The notes under the pieces were generated by a model. It saw only the letters and a list, made by a program, of their open reading frames with translations, was not told where the DNA came from and did not search any database. DNA of 64,000 nucleotides from NCBI GenBank assembly GCA_947084965.1, contig CAMTUG010000001.1, positions 276,206 to 340,205 of the forward strand, written 5' to 3'. Positions 13,573 to 41,294 of the stretch are shown in pieces (the first letter of the stretch is position 1; every line of letters begins with the position of its first letter). Origin of the DNA: an uncultured Parcubacteria group bacterium. GTDB lineage: Bacteria; Patescibacteriota; Patescibacteriia; UBA9934; CAMTUG01. The translations under genes were made by a program, and so were the position numbers.

Positions 13573-14043
13573 ATGGCTACCACAAACTTCATTCGCCGCC
13601 TGCTCGAACTACGTCTCTTCCTTGTGATTAACTTGGTGGCGCTCTTTTTCCTTTCACTTTCGTTCGGCCGCGAATATCTCCGTAATGCATCGATTGAGTC
13701 AGAAATTGCTTCGCTTAAAGCAGAAGAGTCAGCTCTTTCTGCCCGTAACCTAGAAATCATTGCTCTCTCTGAGTCTGTCCAAACTCAGTATTTTGTCGAA
13801 GGTGAGGGACGGGTCAAATACGGTTTACGCAAACCGGGGGAGGAATTGGTCGTTGTGACTCAAACGGAAACCGCCCAGCCACAGGCAACGGTGACGGACG
13901 GCCAGTCGGCCACGTCGAGCGACACAGGACCGACGGAATCAGAGGGGGAGGAGAACCGGGTAGGCAATCCGACGCGTTGGTGGTATTTCTTGTTCGATCA
14001 CCCGGCTTACGATCAACTGATCACAGACTATGGAAACGGCTGA
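13573..14043 (+). CDS. Septum-formation initiator (FtsB/DivIC-like)
   Basis: 156 aa. A single N-terminal TM helix, then the coiled coil 'IESEIASLKAEESALSARNLEI'. Confidence 0.6.
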   Translation: MATTNFIRRLLELRLFLVINLVALFFLSLSFGREYLRNASIESEIASLKAEESALSARNLEIIALSESVQTQYFVEGEGRVKYGLRKPGEELVVVTQTETAQPQATVTDGQSATSSDTGPTESEGEENRVGNPTRWWYFLFDHPAYDQLITDYGNG

Positions 14044-15555: not shown

Positions 15556-15685
15556 GGAACATCGTAAATTTTGGAACACTGCTTTGTTGCGGGTCCCTGC
15601 CACCTTCGTCGACGCACCTTTCAGTGCGCCTCCTCGGATGGCATCCCGCGCCTCGCATTGTTCTCAAAATTGACGATGTTCCTGG
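15553..15685. repeat. 21-bp inverted repeat enclosing a 91-bp GC-rich structured core between two tRNAs
   Basis: 'ccaggaacatcgtaaattttg' (15553-15573) against 'caaaattgacgatgttcctgg' (15665-15685), complementary at 20 of 21 positions. The first arm starts in the CCA of tRNA-Gly. The core holds nested stems ('gcggg..tgcc'/'ggcatcccgc' and 'cgcac-ctttca-gtgcg'). Confidence 0.7.
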
Positions 15686-15715: not shown

Positions 15716-15790
15716 GCCGATGTAGCTCAGTGGTAGAGCAATGCTTTCGTAAAGCAGAGGTCGCGAGTTCGACTCTCGCCATCGGCTCCA
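15716..15790 (+). tRNA. tRNA-Thr (anticodon CGU), CCA encoded
   Basis: GCCGATG-TA-GCTC-AGTGGTA-GAGC-A-ATGCT-TTCGTAA-AGCAG-AGGTC-GCGAG-TTCGACT-CTCGC-CATCGGC-T-CCA. Confidence 0.85.
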
Positions 15791-20644: not shown

Positions 20645-21124
20645 TTATTTTTTGCCCGGAGTCAGGGCGAGCATCCAGCGAATGCGTAATTGAGAAGATT
20701 TTTTGATCCAAGGGAAAGGAAAGTCAAACCAAATGCGCATGAACGTTTCGTGATCCAGGGATCGCCGCTTTCCATTTTCTGGATCAATAAAGATCACACG
20801 CAGATCCGTTACGCCGACAACGACAGAATAATGGCCTTCGTTAACAGAAAACCAGTTAAAAATAACAGGAACGCCTTTTTCACAGTACGCACGTATATCA
20901 GCGATCGTGGAGTGCTTTTTCCATCGCCCGCGAAAACCGTAGTGGTGTGCTGCGGTGAGCATCTGTGAAGGAGATGTTCCGTGGGAAACGGTCGTTTTGG
21001 CGAGGCGGCCAATTTCGCGTTGGGTAGCGACAACTCCATAATACGCGAAGACCATCTGCAGGCTTGCAGGACCACAATACGAGGGATATTGACGATAGGC
21101 GGGAACGTCTAGGTTTTTTGACAT
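20645..21124 (-). CDS. Stand-alone peptidase C39-like (papain-fold) protein
   Basis: 159 aa. Candidate catalytic Cys in 'SYCGPASLQM' and His in 'NEGHYSVVVG'. Last gene of a tight minus-strand operon. Confidence 0.6.
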   Translation of the reverse strand: MSKNLDVPAYRQYPSYCGPASLQMVFAYYGVVATQREIGRLAKTTVSHGTSPSQMLTAAHHYGFRGRWKKHSTIADIRAYCEKGVPVIFNWFSVNEGHYSVVVGVTDLRVIFIDPENGKRRSLDHETFMRIWFDFPFPWIKKSSQLRIRWMLALTPGKK

Positions 21125-21136
21125 ACGAAACTCAAA

Positions 21137-21715
21137 TTAGTGCAGTTGTTTCTTTCTGCCGAGGAGGATCGCGGCTACGACGGCAAAGTTACAGATGAAA
21201 ATATAGAACGGGTAGGCGAGGAGGGGGAGGTCAATGACGCCGACAGCTAACAGGCCAAAGAATCCTCCGGTGCCAGAAAGGGCCCAAGTGATTAACGTTT
21301 CGCTCTCTGGATGTTCGTAGGATTTGATGACGGTCAGCCAGGCGCCCATGGCGTCAATCAATACGGTTAAGTAGACGGCGATGACCGCATTATCGGTAAA
21401 GTACCAGATGAGCAACGTTACCGCGGCCGCAAGAAGGGTGATTACATCGCGTTTGAGGAGTCCGCCGAATCCGTAGCGGATCGAGAGGAGAAGAACAATG
21501 ATCACGCCGATCCCTTGAATGCCTGGGAGCCAGAGGGAATGGGTAGCACCCACGGCGAGTTGGGTAAAGAACCCCATGGCAGTGAGCACGCTCCAAATTA
21601 GCCACGACGCACGTTCTGGCCTCACAGTCCCTTTCACGATGGCGATGATGTACGGCGGATAGGAGATCGCACTAAAAACTCCTGCCAGGATGCCGAAAAT
21701 AGCGAGAATGTTCAT
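21137..21715 (-). CDS. Polytopic membrane protein, function unknown
   Basis: About 192 aa with about 6 hydrophobic helices. The start 'MNILAIFGIL' lies 4 nt after the stop of the upstream gene. Confidence 0.6.
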   Translation of the reverse strand: MNILAIFGILAGVFSAISYPPYIIAIVKGTVRPERASWLIWSVLTAMGFFTQLAVGATHSLWLPGIQGIGVIIVLLLSIRYGFGGLLKRDVITLLAAAVTLLIWYFTDNAVIAVYLTVLIDAMGAWLTVIKSYEHPESETLITWALSGTGGFFGLLAVGVIDLPLLAYPFYIFICNFAVVAAILLGRKKQLH

Positions 21716-21719
21716 ATAG

Positions 21720-22739
21720 TTACAACCCACGCTTTAAGCGGCGGAACGTTTCGATGGCGAAGTTGAGCCAGTACTTTTTGGTGAGCGGCAGGTCTTGGGC
21801 GTGAACGTACTCTTCGGGGAATCCACCGAATCCTTTTTTGAAAAGCGACAGTCCGGCCCAGGGGTGTTTGGGTTTGTTGTCCGGGGAGATTCCCCAGAAG
21901 TTATAGAGCGTACAGCCCCGGCGCTTGGCTTCTTGAATCGCTCGCCATTGCAAAAGCGATGAGGCGTTCAAGTGAGGGAAGATCTGAAGTGAACCGCTGT
22001 GGTGATAGTAGGCGGAACCGTTGTAGAAGATAATGATCGAGGCGGCGATGATCGTCCCTTGATAGGTGCCAAAGAAAAAGGCGGCCTGGTTGTCTTTAGC
22101 AAAAAGGTCAAACTCTTGTTTGAGGTAGGACTTGCTGAACGGCGTGTAGTGCTGACGATCCGCTGTCGCTTTGTACACTTTCCAAAAATCTTCCATCGCT
22201 TCCGGGTCGGTGCGCATGGTGATTTCGATCCTGTCCTTTTCTGACTTTTTGATCAGGTAGCGTGTTGTTTTGCGCATCTCTTTCAATAGCGTTTCCTCAT
22301 CTTTGGTGATGTCGAGGAGCCAGGAGAGTTCTGGATGCATGTGAATCGGTGCAGGGCGGAATCCTAGTGATGCGTAGAGACTTTTTTCCGTCACGGGTTG
22401 TAGTGGACAGATGCGAATGAAATCGCAGCGCTCGCGTTGTCCGATGTTAAGGAGTTCCTCGACGAGCACCTTGAGAATCCCAGCTGCGTCTGCATCTCTG
22501 GCGACCGTCGGACCGTGTGGACAGAGCAAAAAGGCTCCACGACGGGCGTTAATCTTAATGAGCAGAGCTACAGCCATCAATTGCTCCGCGCGATACACAC
22601 CCAGGCGGAAGATCTTTGATCCTGAGTGCTCGTACTGCAACCCCCATTTCCAGGAATGCAAAAACGTATGCGGACGCTGTTCTTGCATGAACGCTTCCCA
22701 ACGTTGTTCATCCTTTATTTCTGCAACGGAATAGTTCAT
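21720..22739 (-). CDS. FemAB-family aminoacyl-tRNA-dependent peptidoglycan peptide-bridge transferase (FemX-like)
   Basis: 339 aa. 'HTFLHSWKWG' and the overall FemAB/GNAT-duplication look. ATGA overlap with the upstream DegT-like gene. Confidence 0.7.
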   Translation of the reverse strand: MNYSVAEIKDEQRWEAFMQEQRPHTFLHSWKWGLQYEHSGSKIFRLGVYRAEQLMAVALLIKINARRGAFLLCPHGPTVARDADAAGILKVLVEELLNIGQRERCDFIRICPLQPVTEKSLYASLGFRPAPIHMHPELSWLLDITKDEETLLKEMRKTTRYLIKKSEKDRIEITMRTDPEAMEDFWKVYKATADRQHYTPFSKSYLKQEFDLFAKDNQAAFFFGTYQGTIIAASIIIFYNGSAYYHHSGSLQIFPHLNASSLLQWRAIQEAKRRGCTLYNFWGISPDNKPKHPWAGLSLFKKGFGGFPEEYVHAQDLPLTKKYWLNFAIETFRRLKRGL

Positions 22740-23935
22740 ACCTCGTGTTGAGTGGCAAACCAGGCGTTCACTTCGCGTACAATGCGCTCGGCGTCGGCCT
22801 TGGAGATCGAACGGTGCGTCGGTAAGTTGAGAATCTGCTCAGAAACGAACTCCGACTGCGGGCACGTCCCGGTATAATCGGTCAGGTACATGTATTTTTT
22901 AGGTGCGATTGGAGCATCGTACCAAATGTCGCTGATGTAGATACGGCGCTTGCGCAGATAGGTGATCAGACCTTCTCGCTGTTTTACGAGAATCGGGAAG
23001 CGCAGATAGATCGCATCGTTATGATTCGCGGCTAACATTAAAAGATCTTTGCTAAGACCTGATTGATATATTTCGGTAATCATCTTGCGATGCGTAATCA
23101 TCTTCGGAAGAACGGTGTATTCATGCATCGCTTGCACGGTGTACCAACTCGGAAGTTCGTGCGCTTCGACCGTCATGCCAGGAGGAAGAGGTTTGGAAAG
23201 CAGATGCAAGGATCGGCAGACTTTGTGAAGTAGTTTCCCAATACCTAGCGCATGAGTGAGCCGAATTTTATAGGTGAGGGTCGGATAAAAACGATCGCGC
23301 AGTTGCTGTGAGCGAGAGATCTGTTTTGCTGGAGCGTGCGTTTTGTCGCTGTACTGCTTCGAACGGGTGATCAGCGCGCCGCCGGAAACGGCATCAATCA
23401 CTTTGTCTTGGCTAAACGAAAGGATCGTGAAGTCGCCGATCGTTCCGGCTTCTTCACCAGATGTGTATTGAACGCCGATCGAATGAGCCAAGTCCTCGAT
23501 CAACACCAACTGTTTTGATCGACAGAACTCGGCGATCTCTCGCGCTTCACACGGCTCGCCAAGCGTATTTTGAATGATGACAACGGTGATATCTGGGTTT
23601 GCTTCCACGGCGGTTTTCAACGCATCAAGGGAGAAGTTCAGCGAACCTGGTTCAATATCGAGGAGCTCGGCACGATATCCGCTGTTCACAATGGCCTGAT
23701 AGACGGCATAACAGGTGAAGCCGTTGATGATGACCGTACTTCCAGGCTTAGTGATTTTATTCAGAGCGAGGGCGATCGCTTCGCGGCCTTTGTAGGTGAG
23801 GGTCACTTCGCCGCCATAGCGTGACGATAAGAAATCAATAAAGCGCTGGCGTCTGGCCGGTGTGCCAACAGCCAGAAACGTTCGCCAAGCGTCGAAGAAT
23901 CCGTAGTTTGATCCGAGAGAGTTGAAGATGCTCAT
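22736..23935 (-). CDS. DegT/DnrJ/EryC1-type PLP-dependent (sugar) aminotransferase
   Basis: 'SFSQDKVIDAVSGGALI' carries the PLP-lysine motif. The internal ATG at 23935 avoids overlap with the upstream gene. Confidence 0.7.
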   Translation of the reverse strand: MSIFNSLGSNYGFFDAWRTFLAVGTPARRQRFIDFLSSRYGGEVTLTYKGREAIALALNKITKPGSTVIINGFTCYAVYQAIVNSGYRAELLDIEPGSLNFSLDALKTAVEANPDITVVIIQNTLGEPCEAREIAEFCRSKQLVLIEDLAHSIGVQYTSGEEAGTIGDFTILSFSQDKVIDAVSGGALITRSKQYSDKTHAPAKQISRSQQLRDRFYPTLTYKIRLTHALGIGKLLHKVCRSLHLLSKPLPPGMTVEAHELPSWYTVQAMHEYTVLPKMITHRKMITEIYQSGLSKDLLMLAANHNDAIYLRFPILVKQREGLITYLRKRRIYISDIWYDAPIAPKKYMYLTDYTGTCPQSEFVSEQILNLPTHRSISKADAERIVREVNAWFATQHEV

Positions 23936-23936
23936 A

Positions 23937-24623
23937 CTAGGCGAGCTCCTGAATGATCTGTTCAGCGACAACTTCCGGATGCGTAACGTGTGGGGAGTGT
24001 CGCGCATTTGGAATCACAAAAAGCTTTGAATTCTCAATCGATCGGTGCATCAACTCACCGTCACTAAGCGGGGTGCTGCCGTCGTTCGCGCCCCAAATGA
24101 GGAGTGTTGGTGCTTTGATGCTTGATAAAACGGAACGCAGATCAACGCCGATCAGGTTAGCCATCGTTTTGCGCATGGCGGGACTTGCCTTCTCATAATC
24201 GCGTTCGCGGGCGGCACGATAGAGAAGTTTGCGTAGGCGATCGGATGAACTGAAGAGCTTTCCGACTTTGGCGAGGAGCCAAAAGACGCTGCGCTTGATG
24301 CGAATTTTTAAACCGTTCGGATAGATCCCGGCGCTGTCGATCAAAATCAATCGCTCAACTTTTTCTGGATATCGTGAAGCAAAAGCGATCGAGATGCGCC
24401 CGCCGTTTGAGTGGCCGACTAAGATGACCTTCTCTTCGTCTTTGAGTTCTGACTTCAACCAATCAACGTAATCATCGAGCGTCCAGGTGCGATCGGTGCC
24501 GTCGGTTAAGCCCGGAACGGGCAACAATTGCGAATCAATCCCGCTTTGCTTAAGCAGGGCGATGAGCGGATTCCAGGTGTCGGTGGTGTACGTCCAACCG
24601 TGGAGGATGTAAATCTTTTTCAT
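23937..24623 (-). CDS. Alpha/beta-fold hydrolase
   Basis: 'ILHGW' and the nucleophile elbow 'GHSNGG'. About 228 aa. Confidence 0.7.
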   Translation of the reverse strand: MKKIYILHGWTYTTDTWNPLIALLKQSGIDSQLLPVPGLTDGTDRTWTLDDYVDWLKSELKDEEKVILVGHSNGGRISIAFASRYPEKVERLILIDSAGIYPNGLKIRIKRSVFWLLAKVGKLFSSSDRLRKLLYRAARERDYEKASPAMRKTMANLIGVDLRSVLSSIKAPTLLIWGANDGSTPLSDGELMHRSIENSKLFVIPNARHSPHVTHPEVVAEQIIQELA

Positions 24624-25894
24624 AATGACCACTGCTTACGGCGAATCTGCCAGATCTGTTCGCGGCGGCAGAGCTTGTTTACATCGTCAGGGGAGGCAAG
24701 GAGATGTTCGATGACCCCTTCGAGGAATCGCGCGCCCTTAAATAGCAAAACCTCATCGCCTTTGATCGCAGACGAAAGATAATCAAGTGCGTCCTTCGGT
24801 TGGATGAATGATTCAATGTGCACTCCACGTTCTTCAAGTTCAGCTAACTTTGGCAGAGTGTACTTGGTGAGGCGTGGACCGACAAGAATGATCTGTTCGA
24901 AGTCGCTATCCACCAGGAGTTCAGCGAGGCCTTCGTGCTCGGTTTGCTCCTGTTCACCTTGCTCGATCAGATCACCAAGGATCGCCCACTTTTTTTCTGC
25001 TCGAAGTTGATTGACCATCGATACAATGACAGAGACAGAAGCGAGGTTGGCGTTATAGCTGCTGTCGATGATCGTTGTGTTTTTGATTCCAGCAAACAAC
25101 GAGCTCCGTCCTGGGGGCATGACAAGGCGTGAGAAGTGTTCGTCCGTTTGCTGTCCAAAGTATTCACAAATAACAGGCGTGGCAGCGATCGCATAGAACG
25201 TTTCTTTTGGAAGAAGATAGGGGAGATGATACGCGCGCCCACTGATCACAAATCCTGTCCCGGTCGTGGCAACGGAATATTCTTCGAGGTGGTCATCCTC
25301 GCGCACTTCGCGCCATTCGGCGGTCGTGCGTTTTTTCTGATCAACGATTAGTTTGTTGTCACCGTTCGTGATAACGAGTTTTGATGCCTGTTCGACGAAA
25401 TACCCAAACTCGTAGGCGATCGCCTCGTCTACGTTAGTAAACTTTCCTGTGCGCAGTAATTTTTCAAACTGCTGGCTGTGCGTTCGAGCACAGCTGAGCC
25501 AGATAACAATTTCTGGCTTGAGTAAAGCACTCAGGAAGCGACCTTCTCCTGGACGTTCCGCATCGGCTTCGACAACATAGATTTTCTCTGTCGGCGGTTT
25601 TTTCCAGGCCCGAATCGGAGCGAGAAGAAAAAGACCGATCCACTCAACGGGAGAAAACGTCGTACGTTTCAACCCGAGAATATCAAACGGAATTCCGTAA
25701 GTGCTGTTAGCGTGATGAGAATACTTGGCCGCTGTCTGCAGCTGCGATTCGAGCAGATGGAGGGCGGTCGTCTTTCCGTTTGATCCGGTAACAACAACAA
25801 TGCGCGGCTTCCAGAGGTGCAATTGAATCAACGCGCAATACTTAAAATAATGCGCGATAAAAAAATACAGTTTGTGCTTGATTTTCCTGAACAT
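24620..25894 (-). CDS. Mur ligase family protein, MurF-like
   Basis: 'VVVTGSNGKTT' P-loop, 'ILGDLIEQGEQEQTEHEGL' (compare MurF 'LGDMLELGE') and 'LLFKGARFLEG'. Hydrophobic N-terminus. First gene of the operon. Confidence 0.7.
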   Translation of the reverse strand: MFRKIKHKLYFFIAHYFKYCALIQLHLWKPRIVVVTGSNGKTTALHLLESQLQTAAKYSHHANSTYGIPFDILGLKRTTFSPVEWIGLFLLAPIRAWKKPPTEKIYVVEADAERPGEGRFLSALLKPEIVIWLSCARTHSQQFEKLLRTGKFTNVDEAIAYEFGYFVEQASKLVITNGDNKLIVDQKKRTTAEWREVREDDHLEEYSVATTGTGFVISGRAYHLPYLLPKETFYAIAATPVICEYFGQQTDEHFSRLVMPPGRSSLFAGIKNTTIIDSSYNANLASVSVIVSMVNQLRAEKKWAILGDLIEQGEQEQTEHEGLAELLVDSDFEQIILVGPRLTKYTLPKLAELEERGVHIESFIQPKDALDYLSSAIKGDEVLLFKGARFLEGVIEHLLASPDDVNKLCRREQIWQIRRKQWSL

Positions 25895-37128: not shown

Positions 37129-37340
37129 CAACGTCGGCGGCGGAGGTGCGAGCTGACGAGTTCTCTTTTCGCGCGCAGTCGTGTCCTTTCTTAGAGACGA
37201 GCACGAAAAGAGTGTCAGCGAGACCGAGTACGACGACGTTTGGTCGCCCTCTCCACGCGCTTCGCAGAATCCCGCCGCGACATAGATTCTTGGCCATTAA
37301 TGTCGCGGACGTGATCCTGCTTCGCGGTGGATCGGGCGAC

Positions 37341-37736
37341 TTAGCTCGTTTTTGCTTTGTGCTTGAGCATTGTTTTGTGTCTTTCCGGCAGCGATTGCCA
37401 GAACAGAGCGATCGTTCCGGTGGCGAGTCCGATGTCGCGGACAGTAATTTCGTTGATACCAGAAACAATCAGAATGCCGACGAGATGCACGGTGGCGAGA
37501 AGGGCGACGACCCACGGCAACAGGTTGATGAGCATCATGAATCCGAGGATGATATCAAAAACCGCTGTGCCGAGAATCGTTTGCACCGGATCGATTGGGA
37601 TCAGTTCACGCACCCAAGGATTGATGAACGCGGCCCAAGTTTGTGGATCGCGGAAGATCAACACCCCGATCCAGATAAAGGTGATCCCCATCCCGACCCG
37701 CAAGATGTGATACGACGCGTTTGGTTTACCGTCCAT
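37341..37736 (-). CDS. DoxX-like small membrane protein
   Basis: 131 aa with 4 hydrophobic helices. 'LRVGMGITFIWIGVLIF'. Confidence 0.6.
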   Translation of the reverse strand: MDGKPNASYHILRVGMGITFIWIGVLIFRDPQTWAAFINPWVRELIPIDPVQTILGTAVFDIILGFMMLINLLPWVVALLATVHLVGILIVSGINEITVRDIGLATGTIALFWQSLPERHKTMLKHKAKTS

Positions 37737-37742
37737 AATATG

Positions 37743-38177
37743 TTAGATGCGTGAAGTTAGAGCGGCGACGTCAAAGCCGCTGATGATAATGATCAGAGCC
37801 ATCAGACCGACGGTGAGCGAAGACATCAAGCACCAAAAGCACCAGTGTTTGACAATCTTCCATTGGATAAAGATGAGGACGAGCGACATGATCGCCGAGC
37901 CACCGACCATGAGTATCAGAAGTTTATTCCACAGATCTGTTGGTCCAACTTGGACGACGAACAGGCCGGAGATGATGCAGACGGCGACATAAAACCCAAA
38001 TCCGAGGATGTCGTTATGCACCCCGAACATACGGTTATACTTGCTTTCCAGGACCGCACGGCATCCGCCGCCGATCGGGCAGACCGGTTTCTCAGATGCG
38101 TAGCGTTTCTCGATAAGGTATGCTGTTTCTGCGATCCCGAACGCGGCCAGGGTGAAAAGAAGGGCGAGTGATGTCAT
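37743..38177 (-). CDS. Vitamin K epoxide reductase (VKOR) family membrane protein
   Basis: 144 aa with 4 TM helices. Loop cysteines 'CPIGGGC' and the active-site 'CFWC'. Confidence 0.7.
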   Translation of the reverse strand: MTSLALLFTLAAFGIAETAYLIEKRYASEKPVCPIGGGCRAVLESKYNRMFGVHNDILGFGFYVAVCIISGLFVVQVGPTDLWNKLLILMVGGSAIMSLVLIFIQWKIVKHWCFWCLMSSLTVGLMALIIIISGFDVAALTSRI

Positions 38178-38197
38178 AATGGGCTTATTGTAACACT

Positions 38198-38635
38198 ATG
38201 GAAGATGTACGAAAACTCGTGACCGAAGTTCTTGATGCTGGCTATTTGATGAGTTTAGCAACGATCGATGCATCCGGAGCGTGGGCGAGTGTCGTCGTTT
38301 TTATCCACGATGCGGATTTTAATTTGTACTGGTTGTCTCTCCCAACGCGCCGTCATTCCGTTGCTGTTGAGAACGATCCCCGTGCCGCGGCGACGATCAC
38401 GTTGGCTCAAAAACATGGCGACGAAAAAATCGGTTTGCAAGTTTCTGGTCGTGCGGAGCGACTCAGTTCTGCTCCAGCGGAGATCGTGGAAGCATATGGG
38501 CGTCGCATGCAAAAGACCTCGATCGACGGACAAGTTTTCGCGCCGGGTCAAGCTTGGTACGTCCTTCGCCCAACAAAGATCGACCTTATCCATCAACCGC
38601 TCTTCGGGTACGAAAAAAAGTTTCTTGAGCTGTGA
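38198..38635 (+). CDS. Pyridoxamine 5'-phosphate oxidase-like (split-barrel flavin-binding) protein
   Basis: 145 aa. 'MSLATIDASGAWASVVVF' and the overall PNPOx-like pattern. Tentative. Confidence 0.55.
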   Translation: MEDVRKLVTEVLDAGYLMSLATIDASGAWASVVVFIHDADFNLYWLSLPTRRHSVAVENDPRAAATITLAQKHGDEKIGLQVSGRAERLSSAPAEIVEAYGRRMQKTSIDGQVFAPGQAWYVLRPTKIDLIHQPLFGYEKKFLEL

Positions 38636-39627
38636 TTGAATTTGTTTCACAACGCGCTGTGAGTGATTGGCTCCAAGACCATGTTGCGAAGTCAAAGGTT
38701 GTGTTGAAGCCTCTAACCGGCGGATTGTTAAATCAAAACTTGTTGGCGGACGTCGGTGATTCTCGTGTGGTGGTAAAAGTTTACGACGTCATGATGGACA
38801 CAGTAAAGGTGAAAGAGCTTCATCGAATGCTTGCCCACGCAGTGAAGGACGGTATTCCCGTCGCTCAACCAATTTTGGAAGGAAAGATTGATCGTCATGT
38901 TGTGGCCGTCTATCCGTTTATCAATGGAAAGCACCCGCCGCGTTATCGAAATACGCAATCAAGGATTCGAACGATGGGTGCGATGCTTGGAAAGATCGAT
39001 ACTTCACTCGAGTCGTTTCACTCTAAGGTGGAGCAGACAGATCGAGCGAAGCTTTTGCTGAGAATTAATCCTGAACGTTTTTTGTCGGAGATCAAAGACG
39101 TGCGAGCTTCACTGCGGGGCAAGCCGTCGTCATTGCAACGCATCGTGCGAGAAAATCTTGATCGACTTCAGAGAATCGCGGAAACGCATGACTGGCTGGA
39201 GCAGGGGATGGATAAGCTCCCGTTGCGGATGTGTCACGGTGATTATCACATCAAAAATGTGTTGATGCGCGGCGAGGAGATTACGGCGGTCCTCGATTGG
39301 GATAAAGCCGGGAAGGACTGGCGTGGCTTCGAGATCATGCGTTCGGTGATGTTTAATTGTCGACGTGACGACTCACATTTAAGCTGGCCGTTGGTCGAAA
39401 CGTATCTCAAGAGCTACAAGCGTCACGCACCTGCGCTCAGTGAGCTCGAGAAAGTTCTGGTTTTTGAATGTGGATTTCGCCGCGCGTTGTTTTCTTTGTG
39501 GTCGGTCAAGCAATACATTGCCGGAGAACAGAGCGTAGTCAGTAACTTTATCCGTCGCGTGCATTTGTTTCAGTCACTGGCAGAACATCGTGCTGAATAC
39601 GCCGAACGCATCGCGAAGTTGCTTTGA
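38632..39627 (+). CDS. Aminoglycoside/choline-kinase-family phosphotransferase
   Basis: 'MCHGDYHIKNVL' and 'VLDWDKAG' form the Brenner-type catalytic loop and DxD. GTGA overlap with the upstream gene. Confidence 0.7.
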   Translation: MIEFVSQRAVSDWLQDHVAKSKVVLKPLTGGLLNQNLLADVGDSRVVVKVYDVMMDTVKVKELHRMLAHAVKDGIPVAQPILEGKIDRHVVAVYPFINGKHPPRYRNTQSRIRTMGAMLGKIDTSLESFHSKVEQTDRAKLLLRINPERFLSEIKDVRASLRGKPSSLQRIVRENLDRLQRIAETHDWLEQGMDKLPLRMCHGDYHIKNVLMRGEEITAVLDWDKAGKDWRGFEIMRSVMFNCRRDDSHLSWPLVETYLKSYKRHAPALSELEKVLVFECGFRRALFSLWSVKQYIAGEQSVVSNFIRRVHLFQSLAEHRAEYAERIAKLL

Positions 39628-39644
39628 TTGTGCACAATTTACAA

Positions 39645-39674
39645 TTGACAAATGGAGTTTTTTCTGGTTAAATA
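39645..39674 (+). promoter_or_regulatory. Promoter of the non-coding unit
   Basis: TTGACA (39645-39650), a 17-nt spacer, then TTAAAT/TAAATA. The 10-bp palindrome 'ttgtgcacaa' lies just upstream. Confidence 0.45.
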
Positions 39675-39679
39675 GAGTG

Positions 39680-39944
39680 ACAATAAGGTAGTAGGGTGCA
39701 AAGGAAGACCCTCGAAATCATTTGATGATCTCGGGGGATTTTGTTTGTCGAGACTTGGGATCCGTGGGCCCTGATACGGTTATCCTGCTGAACCTCATCA
39801 ATTCGGCACGAGGGGTTCGACTCCCCTAGGGTCCACGGCTTCAGGTCTTGACCAAATGTCACTTTTTCTAGTAGGTTTAAATCGATGAGGTTCAGCTGAT
39901 GATACCTATCAGAAACAAAACAGAGCGCAATGGCGCTCTGTTTT
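39680..39944 (+). ncRNA. Candidate structured ncRNA of about 265 nt, class unknown, bounded by a promoter and a terminator
   Basis: There is no credible ORF. Visible structure includes the hairpin 'ccctcgaaatcat..atgatctcgggg', a tRNA-like domain, the 13-bp long-range helix 39787-39799/39884-39896, and the terminator 'cagagcgc-aatg-gcgctctg-tttt' at 39921-39944. Confidence 0.5.
39766..39835 (+). ncRNA. tRNA-like domain (acceptor stem with G3:U70, T arm, no anticodon arm)
   Basis: 5' 'gggccct' pairs with 3' 'agggtcc', with a G:T wobble at the third pair. The T arm is 'agggg-ttcgact-cccct', with the same T loop as tRNA-Thr in this window. The discriminator is A. The D and anticodon arms cannot be folded. 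Confidence 0.5.
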
Positions 39945-39968
39945 GCAACTCCGTGATAAAATAGTTTC

Positions 39969-41294
39969 ATGATTCCCAAATTCATCACCACCAAAAACGC
40001 TGAGCTTCCGGATAATCCGGGGGTGTATTTTTACTATGATACGAAAGGGAAGTTGCTGTACATCGGCAAGGCGACGAGTTTGAAAAAACGCGTGGGATCA
40101 TATTTCACCAAAGCGCATGATAATCGCATCGCCGATTTGGTAACGAAGATTGCGCGGATTGATTACATCGAAACACCGACCGTTATCGAAGCGCTAGTGC
40201 TTGAAGCGAATCAGATCAAAGCGCATACGCCGCCGTACAATGTTTTGCAGCGCGATGACAAAAGTTTTCTGTATGTGGCGATCACCAATGAAGACTTTCC
40301 CAAGCCGACGTTGCTTCGCGGGTTGGAGTTGCAGCGCATGGGAGTTGATCCGTTTGCGCCGACGCTCTCGCTCAAAGCCAAGCGCAAGTTCAAGGCGATT
40401 TATGGTCCGTACACCAGCGGGCATTCGTTGAAGATCGCTCTCGATCTGATTCGTAAGAGCATTCCTTGGACAACCTGTGAACCGCCAGAAGTGACGGGAG
40501 TAGCCAAAGCCTGTTTTTATCGCCACCTTGGCCAGTGTCCAGGAGTTTGTACAGGAGAGATCACCAAGCGTGATTATGCGAAGATTATTCGCAGTCTGAT
40601 GCTGTTTTTTGAGGGCAAAAAGGAACAGATCATACGCCAGATGCGTCGGGAGATGAAGTCTGCGGCGAATGATTTAGATTTTGAACGCGCCGCGGAATTG
40701 AAGCGTAAGACTTTCGCGTTAACGCATATTCAAGACGTGGCGTTGGTGAGTCACGAAGAGCCGTTGCCGTACAATCGCGAGTCGAAGCCGTACATTGATA
40801 TTCTCGGGCGCATCGAAGCGTACGACATCAGTAATATTTCTGGCACCTCCGCAGTTGGATCGATGGTTGTGTTTGATGACGGGAAGCCAGCCAAACAGCA
40901 CTATCGCAAGTTTAAAATCAAAACCGTGGTTGGCGCGAACGACGTGGCGTGTTTAGAGGAGGTGATGCGTCGTCGTTTGGCGCGTGCGGAGCTGCAGCCA
41001 AAAGCTTGGCCGTTGCCAGAGCTGATGGTGATTGATGGCGGCAAGCCGCAAGTCAATCGGGTGCAAGAAGTGCTCGATGAGTTGCAGGTTGCACTGCCGA
41101 TTGTTGGGCTGGCCAAAGGATTTGATCGCAAGCAGGACGTGTTGATTTTTGATCCTGCCAATCGCGAGTTAAAGCGTGTCGTCGAAACGAACAAAGAGAT
41201 CCTCCAGCGCGCCCGCGACGAAGCGCATCGCTTTGCTATCAGCTACCATCGTAAACTACGAGGAAAACGCTCATTATTGGGCCCTCATACTTGA
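39969..41294 (+). CDS. uvrC: Excinuclease ABC subunit C, short form ending where the (HhH)2 domain normally begins
   Basis: GIY-YIG 'GVYFYYDTKGKLLYIGKA', UVR 'DLDFERAAELKRK' and endonuclease region 'RDEAHRFAISYHRKLRGKR'. 441 aa. Confidence 0.9.
   Translation: MIPKFITTKNAELPDNPGVYFYYDTKGKLLYIGKATSLKKRVGSYFTKAHDNRIADLVTKIARIDYIETPTVIEALVLEANQIKAHTPPYNVLQRDDKSFLYVAITNEDFPKPTLLRGLELQRMGVDPFAPTLSLKAKRKFKAIYGPYTSGHSLKIALDLIRKSIPWTTCEPPEVTGVAKACFYRHLGQCPGVCTGEITKRDYAKIIRSLMLFFEGKKEQIIRQMRREMKSAANDLDFERAAELKRKTFALTHIQDVALVSHEEPLPYNRESKPYIDILGRIEAYDISNISGTSAVGSMVVFDDGKPAKQHYRKFKIKTVVGANDVACLEEVMRRRLARAELQPKAWPLPELMVIDGGKPQVNRVQEVLDELQVALPIVGLAKGFDRKQDVLIFDPANRELKRVVETNKEILQRARDEAHRFAISYHRKLRGKRSLLGPHT

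What the first reader, a model, noticed from the sequence alone, without database searches (positions are those of the whole stretch)
39645..39944. Promoter-to-terminator non-coding unit containing a tRNA-like domain with a G3:U70 acceptor stem and a 13-bp long-range helix
The 340-bp gap between the kinase-like gene and uvrC has a TTGACA-17-TTAAAT promoter, no credible ORF and a clean terminator at 39921-39944. Inside it, 39766-39835 folds as a 7-bp acceptor stem ('gggccct'/'agggtcc') with a G:U wobble at the third pair. It continues directly into a canonical T arm ('agggg-ttcgact-cccct') and a discriminator A, but it has no D or anticodon arms. The strand that replaces the anticodon arm ('gctgaacctcatc', 39787-39799) pairs perfectly with 39884-39896, which lies downstream of the acceptor 3' end.

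G3:U70 is the alanyl-tRNA synthetase identity element used by tRNA-Ala and tmRNA. A TLD tethered by a long helix to a second segment recalls two-piece tmRNAs. The 48 nt before the downstream strand contain an open frame ending in TAG TAG ('...gtc ttg acc aaa tgt cac ttt ttc tag tag').

The topology does not match known standard or permuted tmRNAs, and the tag is atypical. Alternatives are a tRNA-derived att remnant or a new tRNA-like sRNA.
Basis: partly seen in the sequence, partly recalled or inferred. Interest (0 to 1): 0.6.

Follow-up and report, generated by a model that had tools for sequence, protein, structure and literature searches.

The report
Self-masked alanine-type tRNA-like small RNA
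The gap upstream of uvrC holds a real, conserved small-RNA gene of an undescribed family in Uhrbacteria: a tRNA-like RNA that keeps the alanine charging signals but has no working anticodon end, encoded next to an RNA segment that base-pairs with its body.

Summary
The promoter, the terminator, the 7-bp acceptor stem with G3:U70, the T arm, discriminator A and the perfect 13-bp long-range complement are all at the stated coordinates. They are far beyond chance.

The element is one member of a family with six complete members, one cut-off member and two remnants. All lie in Candidatus Uhrbacteria (Patescibacteria), in spacers of the uvrB-uvrA-uvrC-mraZ cluster. Rfam 15 has no matching family.

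- In all six complete members G1:C72, G2:C71, G3:U70 and A73 are invariant, while acceptor pairs 4-7 and the T stem covary.
- The "anticodon" arm differs completely between members. It is always matched by 12-16 nt of complementary sequence in the same transcription unit: in the 3' trailer in the window type, in the 5' leader in the cloverleaf type.
- An outer stem, a leader hairpin with a U tract, and a TTGACA plus extended -10 promoter are also conserved.

The two-piece tmRNA reading is not supported. The tag frame is not conserved, both acceptor strands lie within 70 nt in normal order, and no tmRNA model matches.

Best reading: an independently transcribed alanine-identity tRNA mimic, whose D/anticodon half is clamped by a co-encoded antisense RNA. 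Its function is unknown. Aminoacylation, processing and the role of the clamp are inferred.

The parts
39646..39674 (+). P1 promoter: TTGACA (39646-39651), 17-nt spacer, TGG-TTAAAT (39666-39674, extended -10 spacing)
   Evidence: Sequence. The same TTGACA-N14-TG(G/A)-TNNAAT block stands upstream of six members: L086, L015, L059, L031, L067 and the remnant L085. The simple consensus scanner does not list it, because position 2 of the -10 is T.
39681..39747 (+). Leader: an A-rich stretch, hairpin 39709-39737 (CCCUCGAAAUCAU-UUG-AUGAUCUCGGGGG), then the U tract AUUUUGUUUG (39738-39747). It looks like an intrinsic terminator.
   Evidence: Folds. It is almost identical in L086 and L082. The 3' arm plus U tract (GGGGGAU(C)UUUU(G/A)UUU) recurs in L015, L059 and L067, and more loosely in L031. 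Termination here is inferred, not shown.
39747..39759 (+). Outer stem, 5' strand (GUCGAGACUUGGG)
   Evidence: Pairs with 39840-39852 (13 bp, 4 of them G-U). An outer stem encloses the tRNA-like domain in all complete members, with different sequences: CCCGGGA/UCCCGGG in L015, CCCGAGCCA/UGGCUCGGG in L059, CUCGGUUA/UAACCGAG in L031.
39762..39765 (+). Extension of the acceptor helix (CCGU), pairing with ACGG at 39835-39838
   Evidence: It becomes UCAGU/ACUGA in L086, a compensatory change.
39766..39835 (+). tRNA-like domain, 70 nt. Acceptor 5' strand 39766-39772; D-loop-like GAUACGGUUAUCC 39773-39785 with no D stem; arm hairpin 39786-39808 (7 bp, 9-nt loop CCUCAUCAA); T arm 39811-39827; acceptor 3' strand 39828-39834; A73 at 39835; no encoded CCA.
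   Evidence: Fold. Sub-threshold Rfam match (tRNA-Sec, 24.1 bits, E 0.017). Model R1 scores it 61.8 bits, against 19 bits or less for real tRNAs. Covariation counts.
39787..39799 (+). Arm strand of the long-range helix (GCUGAACCUCAUC)
39840..39854 (+). Outer stem, 3' strand (UUCAGGUCUUGAC, 39840-39852), overlapping a conserved ACCA (39851-39854)
   Evidence: The outer stem is followed directly by ACCA in L015, L059 and L031. The aligned position reads ACCA in the window, ACCC in L086 and ACCG in L082.
39848..39877 (+). Putative internal promoter P2: TTGACC (39848-39853), 18-nt spacer, TAGGTT (39872-39877)
   Evidence: TTGACC or TTGACT, then 17-18 nt, then TANNNT is kept in all five window-type copies: TAGGAT in L086, TATTAT in L082, TAATAT in the L086 remnant, TACCTT in the L085 remnant. 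It survives in the two remnants where the pairing partner of the stem is gone. Inferred promoter. The -10 in the window is weak (3 of 6).
39884..39946 (+). Predicted 3' antisense sRNA of about 63 nt: a 5' seed GAUGAGGUUCAGC (39884-39896; extended complement 39880-39912), then terminator hairpin 39916-39945
   Evidence: In four of the five copies (window, L086, L082, L085 remnant) the predicted start, 6-7 nt after the -10, coincides with the first base of the complementary strand; in the L086 remnant the gap is about 18 nt. Co-folding with the tRNA-like domain gives ddG -14.4 kcal/mol. Terminator (pair I3).

Best explanation
This is an independently transcribed small-RNA gene. It belongs to an undescribed family in Candidatus Uhrbacteria that sits in the spacers of the uvrB-uvrA-uvrC-mraZ cluster.

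Shown or directly read:
- A strong promoter (perfect -35, extended -10) drives a leader with a terminator-like hairpin.
- A long outer stem follows, and on top of it sits a 70-nt tRNA-like domain.
- The domain keeps the full alanine identity set (G1:C72, G2:C71, G3:U70, A73) and a canonical T arm. It has lost the D stem and has a non-canonical 'anticodon' hairpin.
- Downstream there is a second, internal promoter-like site. It would start a roughly 63-nt RNA whose first 13 nt (about 30 nt with bulges) are complementary to the D/arm half of the domain. A terminator ends the unit.
- In the sister subgroup the domain is a full cloverleaf, and the complementary segments lie in the leader, just before the leader hairpin.

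Inferred mechanism:
1. The tRNA-like domain is cut out of the outer stem (RNase P at G1, 3' trimming, CCA addition).
2. Alanyl-tRNA synthetase can charge it, because only the acceptor/T minihelix is needed for that.
3. It cannot decode.
4. The co-encoded antisense RNA is always made in excess: as the terminated leader in one subgroup, or from its own promoter in the other. It clamps the D/anticodon half. This controls the domain's fold, its stability (the duplex would be a substrate for double-strand RNases) or its access to the ribosome.

The end use is unknown. Candidates are a non-ribosomal alanine donor, a tmRNA-TLD-like ribosome ligand, or the toxic half of an RNA-RNA pair.
For: Organism and context:
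- UvrC relatives are all Uhrbacteria or Patescibacteria.
- The window carries uvrB, uvrA, uvrC, mraZ and rsmH around the element.

Homologous elements:
- L082/L083 lie upstream of a UvrC that is 80% identical.
- L086/L087 lie upstream of a UvrC that is 75% identical.
- A profile search added L031, L015, L059 and two remnants. Model R1 added L067.

Covariation (family-only alignment):
- 96% of cells are paired, against 74% in shuffles.
- 10 pairs have changes on both sides (0 of 500 shuffles reach this).
- G3:U70 is never replaced by G:C or A:U. G1:C72 and G2:C71 are invariant in the six complete members. Pairs 4-7 each show 2-3 pair types.
- RNAalifold on the three window-type sequences finds 21 compensatory pairs. 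They cover the outer stem, the acceptor extension, the arm, the T stem and the terminator.

Long-range complement in every member, each with a different sequence:
- Window, 13 bp (0 of 500 shuffles).
- L082, 12 bp.
- L086, 16 bp including 2 G-U.
- L031, 16 bp plus 12 bp.
- L015, 12 bp plus 9 bp.
- L059, 13 bp plus 11 bp.
- L067, 12 bp plus 11 bp plus 9 bp.
- The G-U pairs in these helices pair only on the + strand.
- In the cloverleaf type the segments are in permuted order, which a simple inverted DNA duplication would not produce.

Controls: ordinary tRNAs and phage TLD-only genes have no such partner.

Other points:
- The predicted heteroduplex is favourable, ddG -7 to -18 kcal/mol.
- The promoter block is conserved in all units whose 5' end is present.
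- uvrC has its own TGnTAAAAT element 7 nt before its ATG, after the terminator.
- Both remnants kept the antisense unit and lost the tRNA-like domain.
Against: - No expression data. Promoters, terminators, processing sites and aminoacylation are all inferred.
- The window's domain does not encode CCA, whereas all four ordinary tRNA genes of the window do.
- Its acceptor helix is extended by 4 bp that pair A73 with U-1. That would hinder normal tRNA end processing, so the domain may stay embedded and uncharged.
- The -10 of the internal promoter is weak in the window (TAGGTT). Its -35 doubles as the 3' strand of the outer stem, so the conservation has two possible causes.
- The family is patchy: absent from the surveyed uvr neighbourhood in most of the 80 Uhrbacteria loci and in L001, L084 and L210-L212. 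It also decays, as the remnants show. It is therefore dispensable, or lies elsewhere in those genomes.
- Only seven sequences support the covariation, and they are related.
Confidence: 0.55

Rival explanations
1. RNA-only toxin-antitoxin (addiction or defence) module. Here the tRNA-like RNA would be harmful when free. It could be an alanine-charged mis-decoder in the cloverleaf members, or a dead-end tmRNA-TLD-like ribosome or AlaRS ligand in the window type. The co-varying antisense RNA would be its antitoxin.
For: - The antisense partner is built to be made in excess: a terminated leader, or its own promoter.
- Arm and antisense sequences fall into 'specificity classes' that do not follow the UvrC tree. 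GGUGACUAAC occurs in L082, in L085 and in the first copy of L086.
- Both remnants lost the tRNA-like domain but kept the antisense unit, as orphan antitoxins do.
- The family is patchy and sits in a variable spacer.
- The cloverleaf members have U33 and anticodons UGA, UGA, UAG and UGG on an alanine acceptor.
Against: - No toxicity data.
- Position 37 is a pyrimidine and pair 31:39 is mismatched in most members, so decoding is doubtful.
- The window type cannot decode at all.
- Only two remnants are known.
- The module has no mobile-element context (no integrase or transposase in the flanks seen).
Confidence: 0.15
2. A dedicated alanine carrier for a non-ribosomal, aminoacyl-tRNA-dependent transferase (Fem-type cell-wall bridge synthesis). 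It would be kept away from the ribosome by loss or masking of its decoding half.
For: - The alanine identity set is invariant while the decoding end is free to vary or degenerate.
- The window encodes a FemAB-family protein at 21720-22739 (-), with Pfam E 4e-39 and PDB matches to FemX alanyl- and glycyl-transferases.
- The element lies at the head of the cell-wall (mraZ-rsmH) cluster: directly before mraZ in L031 and just after rsmH in L067.
- From established knowledge: AlaRS and Weissella FemX need only the acceptor arm, and Staphylococcus keeps non-proteinogenic tRNA-Gly species for FemXAB.
Against: - The fem gene is 17 kb away, and no co-occurrence could be tested.
- A housekeeping donor would not be expected to be patchy or to decay.
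- The elaborate covarying antisense partner is more than this role needs.
Confidence: 0.12
3. A novel two-piece tmRNA. The tRNA-like piece would be tethered by the long helix to a coding piece that supplies a tag frame.
For: - G3:U70 and A73.
- The window type has no D stem, and its D-loop-like GAUACGGUUAUCC / ACAGGUUUGUG resembles the 5' ends of phage tmRNAs such as GGGCCCGUACUGGUUUCGAU.
- The long helix is real.
- No ssrA or smpB in the 64-kb window.
Against: - The tag frame is not conserved in length, sequence or stop.
- No pseudoknots. Both acceptor strands lie 55 nt apart in normal order.
- Four members carry the complementary strand in the leader and have D and anticodon arms.
- ARAGORN and the Rfam tmRNA, alpha, beta, cyano, mitochondrial and permuted models give nothing.
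- The distribution is patchy and includes remnants.
Confidence: 0.05
4. A DNA-level feature rather than an RNA. It would be a tRNA/tmRNA-derived attachment-site remnant, or an invertible segment bounded by the 33-bp imperfect inverted repeats.
For: - It lies in a spacer with variable cargo genes (APH, PNPOx, NUDIX, VKOR, DoxX, peroxiredoxin, M23 peptidase) between uvrA and uvrC.
- L086 has a 3'-half copy 1.3 kb upstream of the full copy.
- The inverted repeats 39771-39803 / 39880-39912 flank a promoter-like site.
Against: - Conserved promoter and terminators.
- Compensatory changes in four helices, with G-U pairs that are valid on one strand only.
- The permuted order of the leader segments cannot arise from an inverted duplication.
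- In L086 the partial copy lies upstream of the full gene, not downstream as in classical tRNA-gene integration.
- No integrase or invertase in any flank.
Confidence: 0.05
5. A cis-acting leader that regulates uvrC (attenuator or riboswitch).
For: - It stands directly upstream of uvrC in the window, L082 and L086, and contains two terminator-like hairpins.
Against: - In L015 and L059 it lies between uvrB and uvrA on the opposite strand. In L031 and L067 it lies downstream of uvrC.
- It ends in a strong terminator, and uvrC has its own TGnTAAAAT element right at its start codon.
- Close relatives have no spacer at all (L084, L004).
Confidence: 0.03

Closest known systems
tRNA-like domain of tmRNA (Rfam RF00023 and the permuted forms RF01849-51, RF04321), and the TLD-only mitochondrial tmRNA of jakobids (RF02544)
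   Same: - G1-G3:U70 acceptor with A73, and a canonical T arm.
- No D stem in the window type.
- A D-loop analogue with GGUU.
- A short helix where tmRNA has P2.
- The acceptor GGGCCUG/CAGGUCC is the same as in many phage tmRNAs.
   Different: - No mRNA-like domain, no conserved tag frame and no pseudoknots.
- Both acceptor strands lie within 70 nt in normal order.
- Sister members have D and anticodon arms.
- It carries a cognate antisense partner, which phage TLD-only genes lack.
- No tmRNA model matches.
- Not universally present.
tRNA (RF00005), in particular tRNA-Ala and non-canonical tRNAs that carry alanine identity with other anticodons
   Same: - The cloverleaf members pass the Rfam tRNA threshold (L031 44.1 bits, L015 39.9 bits).
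- ARAGORN calls them tRNA-Pro(tgg) and tRNA-Ser(tga).
- G3:U70 and A73 are the alanine identity elements (established knowledge).
   Different: - The window member has no D stem and a 9-nt loop, and is found by neither tool.
- Anticodons differ between members (CAU-like, UGA, UAG, UGG).
- Position 37 is a pyrimidine, and pair 31:39 is often mismatched.
- Each gene has its own promoter, a leader hairpin, an outer stem and a complementary partner.
- CCA is encoded in only 2 of 6 members.
Non-proteinogenic tRNA-Gly of Staphylococcus (donors for FemXAB)
   Same: The idea of a tRNA kept for a non-ribosomal aminoacyl transfer. A FemAB-family gene is present in the window.
   Different: Those are complete tRNAs with a cognate anticodon and no antisense partner. 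No link between this element and the fem gene has been shown.
mascRNA/MALAT1-type tRNA-like modules with a leader-trailer helix (PMC8457004), and bacterial Y-RNA-like YrlA
   Same: A tRNA-like module embedded in a longer transcript and enclosed by a leader-trailer stem. mascRNA gives a weak structural match (18.4 bits).
   Different: - mascRNA is eukaryotic.
- In YrlA the RNA ends enter through the anticodon-stem position, not through the acceptor stem.
- No Rfam YrlA match at the locus.
Antisense-RNA-controlled systems (type I and type VIII toxin-antitoxin pairs; sRNAs with a 5' seed)
   Same: - A short RNA with a 5' seed, an A/U-rich spacer and a terminator hairpin.
- It is encoded beside its target and covaries with it.
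- Orphan antisense units survive after the target is lost.
   Different: The partner is on the same strand and inside the same unit. The target is a tRNA-like RNA, not an mRNA. Toxicity is untested.

Membership tests
tmRNA (one-piece or two-piece) | tRNA-like domain with G3:U70, A73 and a T arm | tested here: met
   CCA is not encoded in the window member.
tmRNA (one-piece or two-piece) | mRNA-like domain: a conserved tag reading frame with a resume codon and stop, usually ending ...AA | tested here: not met
tmRNA (one-piece or two-piece) | Acceptor strands separated by the whole RNA, or circularly permuted; P2 helix and pseudoknots in between | tested here: not met
   The strands are 55 nt apart in normal order. 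Only one hairpin lies between them.
tmRNA (one-piece or two-piece) | Recognised by ARAGORN or by the Rfam tmRNA-clan models | tested here: not met
   The best clan match is tRNA-Sec at 24.1 bits, against a threshold of 47.
tmRNA (one-piece or two-piece) | SmpB binding and trans-translation; no other ssrA in the genome | not testable with these tools
   No smpB or ssrA in the 64-kb window.
tRNA (RF00005) | Cloverleaf with a D arm, and a score above the Rfam gathering threshold | tested here: not met
   The window member has no D stem and no tRNA hit at threshold. The relatives L031 and L015 do pass.
tRNA (RF00005) | 7-nt anticodon loop with U33 and a purine at position 37 | tested here: not met
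   The window has a 9-nt loop. The cloverleaf members have U33, but C or U at position 37.
tRNA (RF00005) | 3' end as in the genome's other tRNA genes (encoded CCA) | tested here: not met
   All four tRNA genes of the window encode CCA. The element has A-CGG.
Alanine-accepting RNAs (substrates of AlaRS) | G3:U70 with G1:C72, G2:C71 and A73 at the end of an acceptor/T minihelix | tested here: met
   Invariant in the six complete members while pairs 4-7 covary. Charging itself was not tested.
Antisense sRNA with a 5' seed | Own promoter, a seed complementary to the target, and an intrinsic terminator | tested here: inconclusive
   The seed and terminator are clear. The promoter is inferred from a conserved TTGAC(C/T)-17/18-TANNNT in five copies. 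There is no transcript evidence.
Y-RNA-like (YrlA) | tRNA-like module entered through the anticodon-stem position, a Ro-binding stem, and linkage to rsr | tested here: not met
   The topology is the opposite. No Rfam YrlA match at the locus. No rsr was seen among the window genes that were scanned.

The most novel reading that the evidence does not exclude
An RNA-only toxin-antitoxin or 'lock-and-key' module. The effector would be an alanine-accepting tRNA/tmRNA mimic: it would mis-insert alanine or jam stalled ribosomes. Its neutraliser would be a rapidly co-evolving antisense RNA made from the same locus. That would be a new class of tRNA-based selfish or defence element in the reduced genomes of Patescibacteria.
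Probability: 0.15. Interest if true: 0.85.

Novelty: new variant of a known kind. Interest (0 to 1): 0.68.

Why it matters
If confirmed, this would add a new family of bacterial tRNA mimics. It combines three features:
- the alanine identity set shared by tRNA-Ala and tmRNA;
- a decoding end that is free to degenerate;
- a built-in antisense partner that covaries with that end.

This would matter in three ways.
1. It would show that tRNA-like RNAs in ultra-small bacteria are used for something other than decoding or classical trans-translation.
2. It gives a directly testable system: charging by AlaRS, clamping by the antisense RNA, and toxicity or Fem-type transfer.
3. It flags a likely annotation error. 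Gene finders call some members tRNA-Ser or tRNA-Pro in public Uhrbacteria genomes, although their acceptor stems specify alanine.

Tried and rejected
- nhmmer with the window sequence alone against 80 Uhrbacteria uvrC loci found nothing. A three-sequence profile was needed.
- Relatives of the upstream APH-like protein are at most 50% identical, so they were useless for synteny.
- An exact 24-mer of the T arm plus acceptor gave no hit in viral contigs.
- blastn against phages matched only generic T-arm sequence of phage tRNAs.
- The single metagenome scan, with a leader pattern, returned two chance matches.
- A degenerate T-arm/acceptor pattern in viral contigs returned ordinary tRNAs, tmRNA 3' ends and three TLD-only genes in phage tRNA arrays. 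None of those has an antisense partner.
- More UvrC relatives (L001, L084, L210-L212, and P0023 without DNA) lack the element.
The weak hit at 13573-14043 is a DivIC-like protein.
- Five literature searches (tmRNA or tRNA-like RNAs in CPR, Patescibacteria or Parcubacteria; phage tmRNA) found no description of such an element; a sixth attempt was rejected as a malformed query.
- Rejected, minus-strand 108-codon ORF: no family match, and not conserved.
- Rejected, uvrC leader: the position and orientation vary.
- Rejected, tag ORF: not conserved.
Full report
**1. What is in the window**

- TTGACA at 39646-39651, a 17-nt spacer, and TTAAAT at 39669-39674, preceded by TGG.
- A 7-bp acceptor stem, GGGCCCU at 39766-39772 against AGGGUCC at 39828-39834, with G3 opposite U70.
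- A T arm at 39811-39827, and A at the discriminator position 39835.
- A 13-nt strand at 39787-39799 whose exact reverse complement lies at 39884-39896.
- A 13-bp perfect terminator stem at 39916-39945.

The 265-nt unit is much more structured than shuffles (z = -6.4). No flank shuffle reached the 13-bp complement (0 of 500).

Two refinements are needed. Folded on its own, the 70-nt domain has a 7-bp hairpin with a 9-nt loop in the anticodon-arm position, so only the D stem is missing. The complementarity to the trailer also extends to about 33 nt at 76%.

ARAGORN finds four ordinary tRNAs in the window but nothing at this locus. Rfam at gathering thresholds finds nothing there either. A permissive scan gives only a sub-threshold tRNA-Sec match (24.1 bits, E 0.017) that aligns the acceptor stem and T arm.

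**2. Organism and neighbourhood**

All UvrC relatives come from Candidatus Uhrbacteria or Patescibacteria metagenome-assembled genomes. The window is part of a 476-kb contig. The same sequence was assembled independently from run ERR3478686.

The local gene order is uvrB, uvrA, a hypothetical gene, DoxX(-), VKOR(-), PNPOx, APH, the element, uvrC, two unknown genes, mraZ, rsmH, TGT, ClpB, MraY. In many relatives uvrA abuts uvrC directly. In others the spacer holds different small genes, so it is a variable spot.

**3. Homologues**

A single-sequence nhmmer search found nothing. Contigs encoding the closest UvrC proteins did contain the element.
- L082/L083 (UvrC 80% identical) carry it upstream of uvrC.
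- L086/L087 (75% identical) carry it too.

A profile built from these three sequences, a structure scan and covariance model R1 added cloverleaf-type members.
- L031 lies between uvrC and mraZ.
- L015 and L059 lie between uvrB and uvrA on the opposite strand.
- L067 lies after rsmH and is cut off by the end of the locus.

Two remnants also turned up. L085 has the promoter and the start of the leader fused to the 3' unit, with the tRNA-like domain deleted. L086 385-562 has the 3' half of the domain plus the 3' unit.

Ordinary tRNAs score 19 bits or less with R1. Family members score 24-88 bits. In 680 kb of Uhrbacteria uvr neighbourhoods there are only two ordinary tRNA genes, against six to seven family members.

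**4. What is conserved**

(a) Promoter. TTGACA-N14-TG(G/A)-TNNAAT stands at the head of every unit whose 5' end is present.

(b) Leader hairpin. A hairpin whose 3' arm and U tract read GGGGGAU(C)UUUU(G/A)UUU.

(c) Outer stem. It encloses the domain and has a different sequence in each member. It is followed directly by ACCA in the three complete cloverleaf-type members; the aligned position reads ACCA in the window, ACCC in L086 and ACCG in L082.

(d) Acceptor stem and T stem.
- G1:C72, G2:C71, G3:U70 and A73 are invariant in the six complete members.
- Pairs 4-7 each show two or three pair types, and T-stem pairs 49:65 and 50:64 covary.
- Over the model structure, 96% of cells are paired against 74% in shuffles. 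Ten pairs carry double changes (0 of 500 shuffles). Sliding the partners by one column collapses pairing to 51-57%.
- RNAalifold on the three window-type sequences gives 21 compensatory pairs. These include the 4-7-bp extension of the acceptor helix (CCGU/ACGG becoming UCAGU/ACUGA).

A wobble pair kept at position 3:70, while the neighbouring pairs change freely, is the pattern expected for selection on the alanine identity element. That interpretation rests on established knowledge of AlaRS recognition. It was not tested here.

**5. The long-range helix is the family's hallmark**

The arm between the D region and the T arm differs completely between members. Each unit nevertheless contains a matching complement.

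| Member | Location of partner | Complement |
|---|---|---|
| Window | trailer | 13 bp |
| L082 | trailer | 12 bp (GGUUAGUCACCU / AGGUGACUAACC) |
| L086 | trailer | 16 bp, 2 of them G-U |
| L031 | leader | 16 bp + 12 bp |
| L015 | leader | 12 bp + 9 bp (+ 7 bp) |
| L059 | leader | 13 bp + 11 bp |
| L067 | leader | 12 bp + 11 bp + 9 bp |

In the cloverleaf type, the leader first carries the complement of domain positions about 21-33 (and 6-17). A few nucleotides later it carries the complement of positions about 34-48. An A/U-rich spacer and the leader hairpin follow.

That order is permuted relative to a simple inverted copy. The G-U pairs are valid only on the + strand. The constraint therefore acts on RNA, not on DNA.

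Controls lack such a partner: six ordinary tRNAs (best 7-10 nt) and three phage TLD-only genes. Predicted heteroduplexes between the domain and its partner are favourable, with ddG between -7 and -18 kcal/mol.

**6. A second promoter in the window type**

The same TTGAC(C/T)-17/18-TANNNT arrangement occurs in L086, in L082 and in both remnants. In the remnants the 5' partner of the outer stem no longer exists.

In four of the five copies the complementary strand begins 6-7 nt after the -10. In the L086 remnant the gap is about 18 nt. The predicted product in the window is therefore a roughly 63-nt RNA (39884-39946) with the seed at its very 5' end and a terminator at its 3' end.

In the cloverleaf type, the leader terminated at its hairpin would have the same layout: seed, A/U spacer, hairpin, U tract. 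These promoters and ends are inferred.

**7. Why it is not a tmRNA, a plain tRNA, a uvrC leader or an att scar**

- tmRNA. The tag frame is not conserved, and there are no pseudoknots. The acceptor strands are adjacent and in normal order, and four members have D and anticodon arms. No tmRNA-clan model matches. The family is also patchy, with remnants. The window type does resemble the tmRNA tRNA-like domain, with no D stem and a ...ACGGUU... loop (compare the phage tmRNA 5' ends). This places it between tRNA and tmRNA TLD in form.
- Plain tRNA. The window member lacks a D stem and a 7-nt loop. Cloverleaf members have a pyrimidine at position 37, a mismatched 31:39 pair, and anticodons (UGA, UGA, UAG, UGG) that disagree with their alanine acceptor. 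The window's real tRNA genes encode CCA and have no leader hairpin or outer stem.
- uvrC leader. The position and orientation vary between genomes. The unit ends in a terminator. uvrC has its own TGnTAAAAT element 7 nt before its ATG.
- att scar or invertible DNA. There is no recombinase nearby, and the covariation is strand-specific.

**8. Mechanism proposed, and its status**

Shown: a conserved transcription-unit-like architecture, an alanine-identity acceptor/T minihelix under selection, a decoding end that is not conserved, and a covarying complementary partner.

Inferred:
- The domain is excised. Its 12-bp acceptor/T helix positions RNase P at G1. The outer stem followed by ACCA may add a second RNase P-type site that releases the leader.
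- It receives CCA where CCA is not encoded, and AlaRS charges it.
- The partner RNA is made in excess. It pairs with the D/arm half and leaves the acceptor/T minihelix free.
- This pairing blocks any codon reading, changes the fold, or triggers double-strand cleavage.

Main caveat for the window member: it has no encoded CCA, and A73 is paired with U-1. The domain might therefore never be released.

Possible end uses, none tested:
- A regulated non-ribosomal alanine donor. A FemAB-family transferase gene lies at 21720-22739.
- A TLD-only ribosome ligand.
- The harmful half of an RNA-RNA toxin-antitoxin pair. The last fits the patchiness, the shuffled specificity classes, and the two remnants that kept only the antisense unit.

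**9. Novelty and verdict**

No Rfam 15 family matches. The literature searches found no description of such an element.

I rate it a new variant of a known kind: a tRNA/tmRNA-like small RNA with a distinctive, covarying self-complement. It is a real feature supported by comparative evidence. Its function is still open.

Noticed in passing
window 21720-22739 (-), with neighbours 20645-25894 (-): A FemAB-family (aminoacyl-tRNA-dependent peptide-bridge transferase) gene. Pfam E 4e-39, with PDB matches to FemX. It sits in a minus-strand block with a C39 peptidase, a DegT-type aminotransferase, an alpha/beta hydrolase and a Mur-ligase-like gene.
   Followed up: partly
L106 12718-12796 (-); L125 6649-6725 (-); L187 7276-7348 (-): Viral contigs with tRNA gene arrays carry 73-79-nt 'TLD-only' genes. 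They have a G3:U70 acceptor, a tmRNA-type 5' end (GGGCCUGACAGGCUUCGAC...) and a T arm, but no mRNA-like part. ARAGORN and Rfam do not call them, and they have no nearby antisense partner.
   Followed up: partly
L015 587-660 (-), L059 651-727 (-), L031 5786-5861 (+), L082 56-125 (+): ARAGORN and Rfam call these family members tRNA-Ser(tga), tRNA-Ser(tga), tRNA-Pro(tgg) and tRNA-??? (4-base anticodon). Their acceptor stems nevertheless carry G3:U70 and A73. This is a probable mis-annotation in public Uhrbacteria genomes.
   Followed up: yes
window 37146-39627, and the uvrA-uvrC spacer in L001-L087: The uvrA-uvrC spacer is a variable spot. It ranges from 0 bp in many relatives to about 3 kb, with changing cargo: APH, PNPOx, NUDIX, VKOR, DoxX, peroxiredoxin, M23 peptidase.
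   Followed up: partly
L082 position 1 and L083 position 1: Two independent assemblies (SRR8931243, SRR8931244) break at the same base, inside the leader hairpin of the element. This suggests strain heterogeneity or a repeat just upstream.
   Followed up: no
L067 9275-9359: In this member the sequence after the variable region (ACGGGUGUUGUUCUCACUUCG...) does not continue into a T loop and 3' acceptor strand within the 85 nt available. It may be an insertion (an intron?) or a degenerate copy. The locus ends before this can be resolved.
   Followed up: no
window 39954-39971: uvrC appears to have an extended -10 element (TGATAAAAT) only 7 nt before its ATG. The same is seen in L086 and L082. This implies a leaderless or nearly leaderless uvrC mRNA.
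   Followed up: no
window 39969-41294: UvrC here and in all relatives is only about 435-465 aa long. Pfam finds the GIY-YIG, UVR and RNase H-like domains, and no match to a C-terminal helix-hairpin-helix domain was returned.
   Followed up: no
window 15655-15664 and 15733-15742: The tRNA-Thr gene has a 10-nt complement (1 G-U) to its D/anticodon region about 60 nt upstream. It is the longest among the control tRNAs and is probably chance.
   Followed up: no
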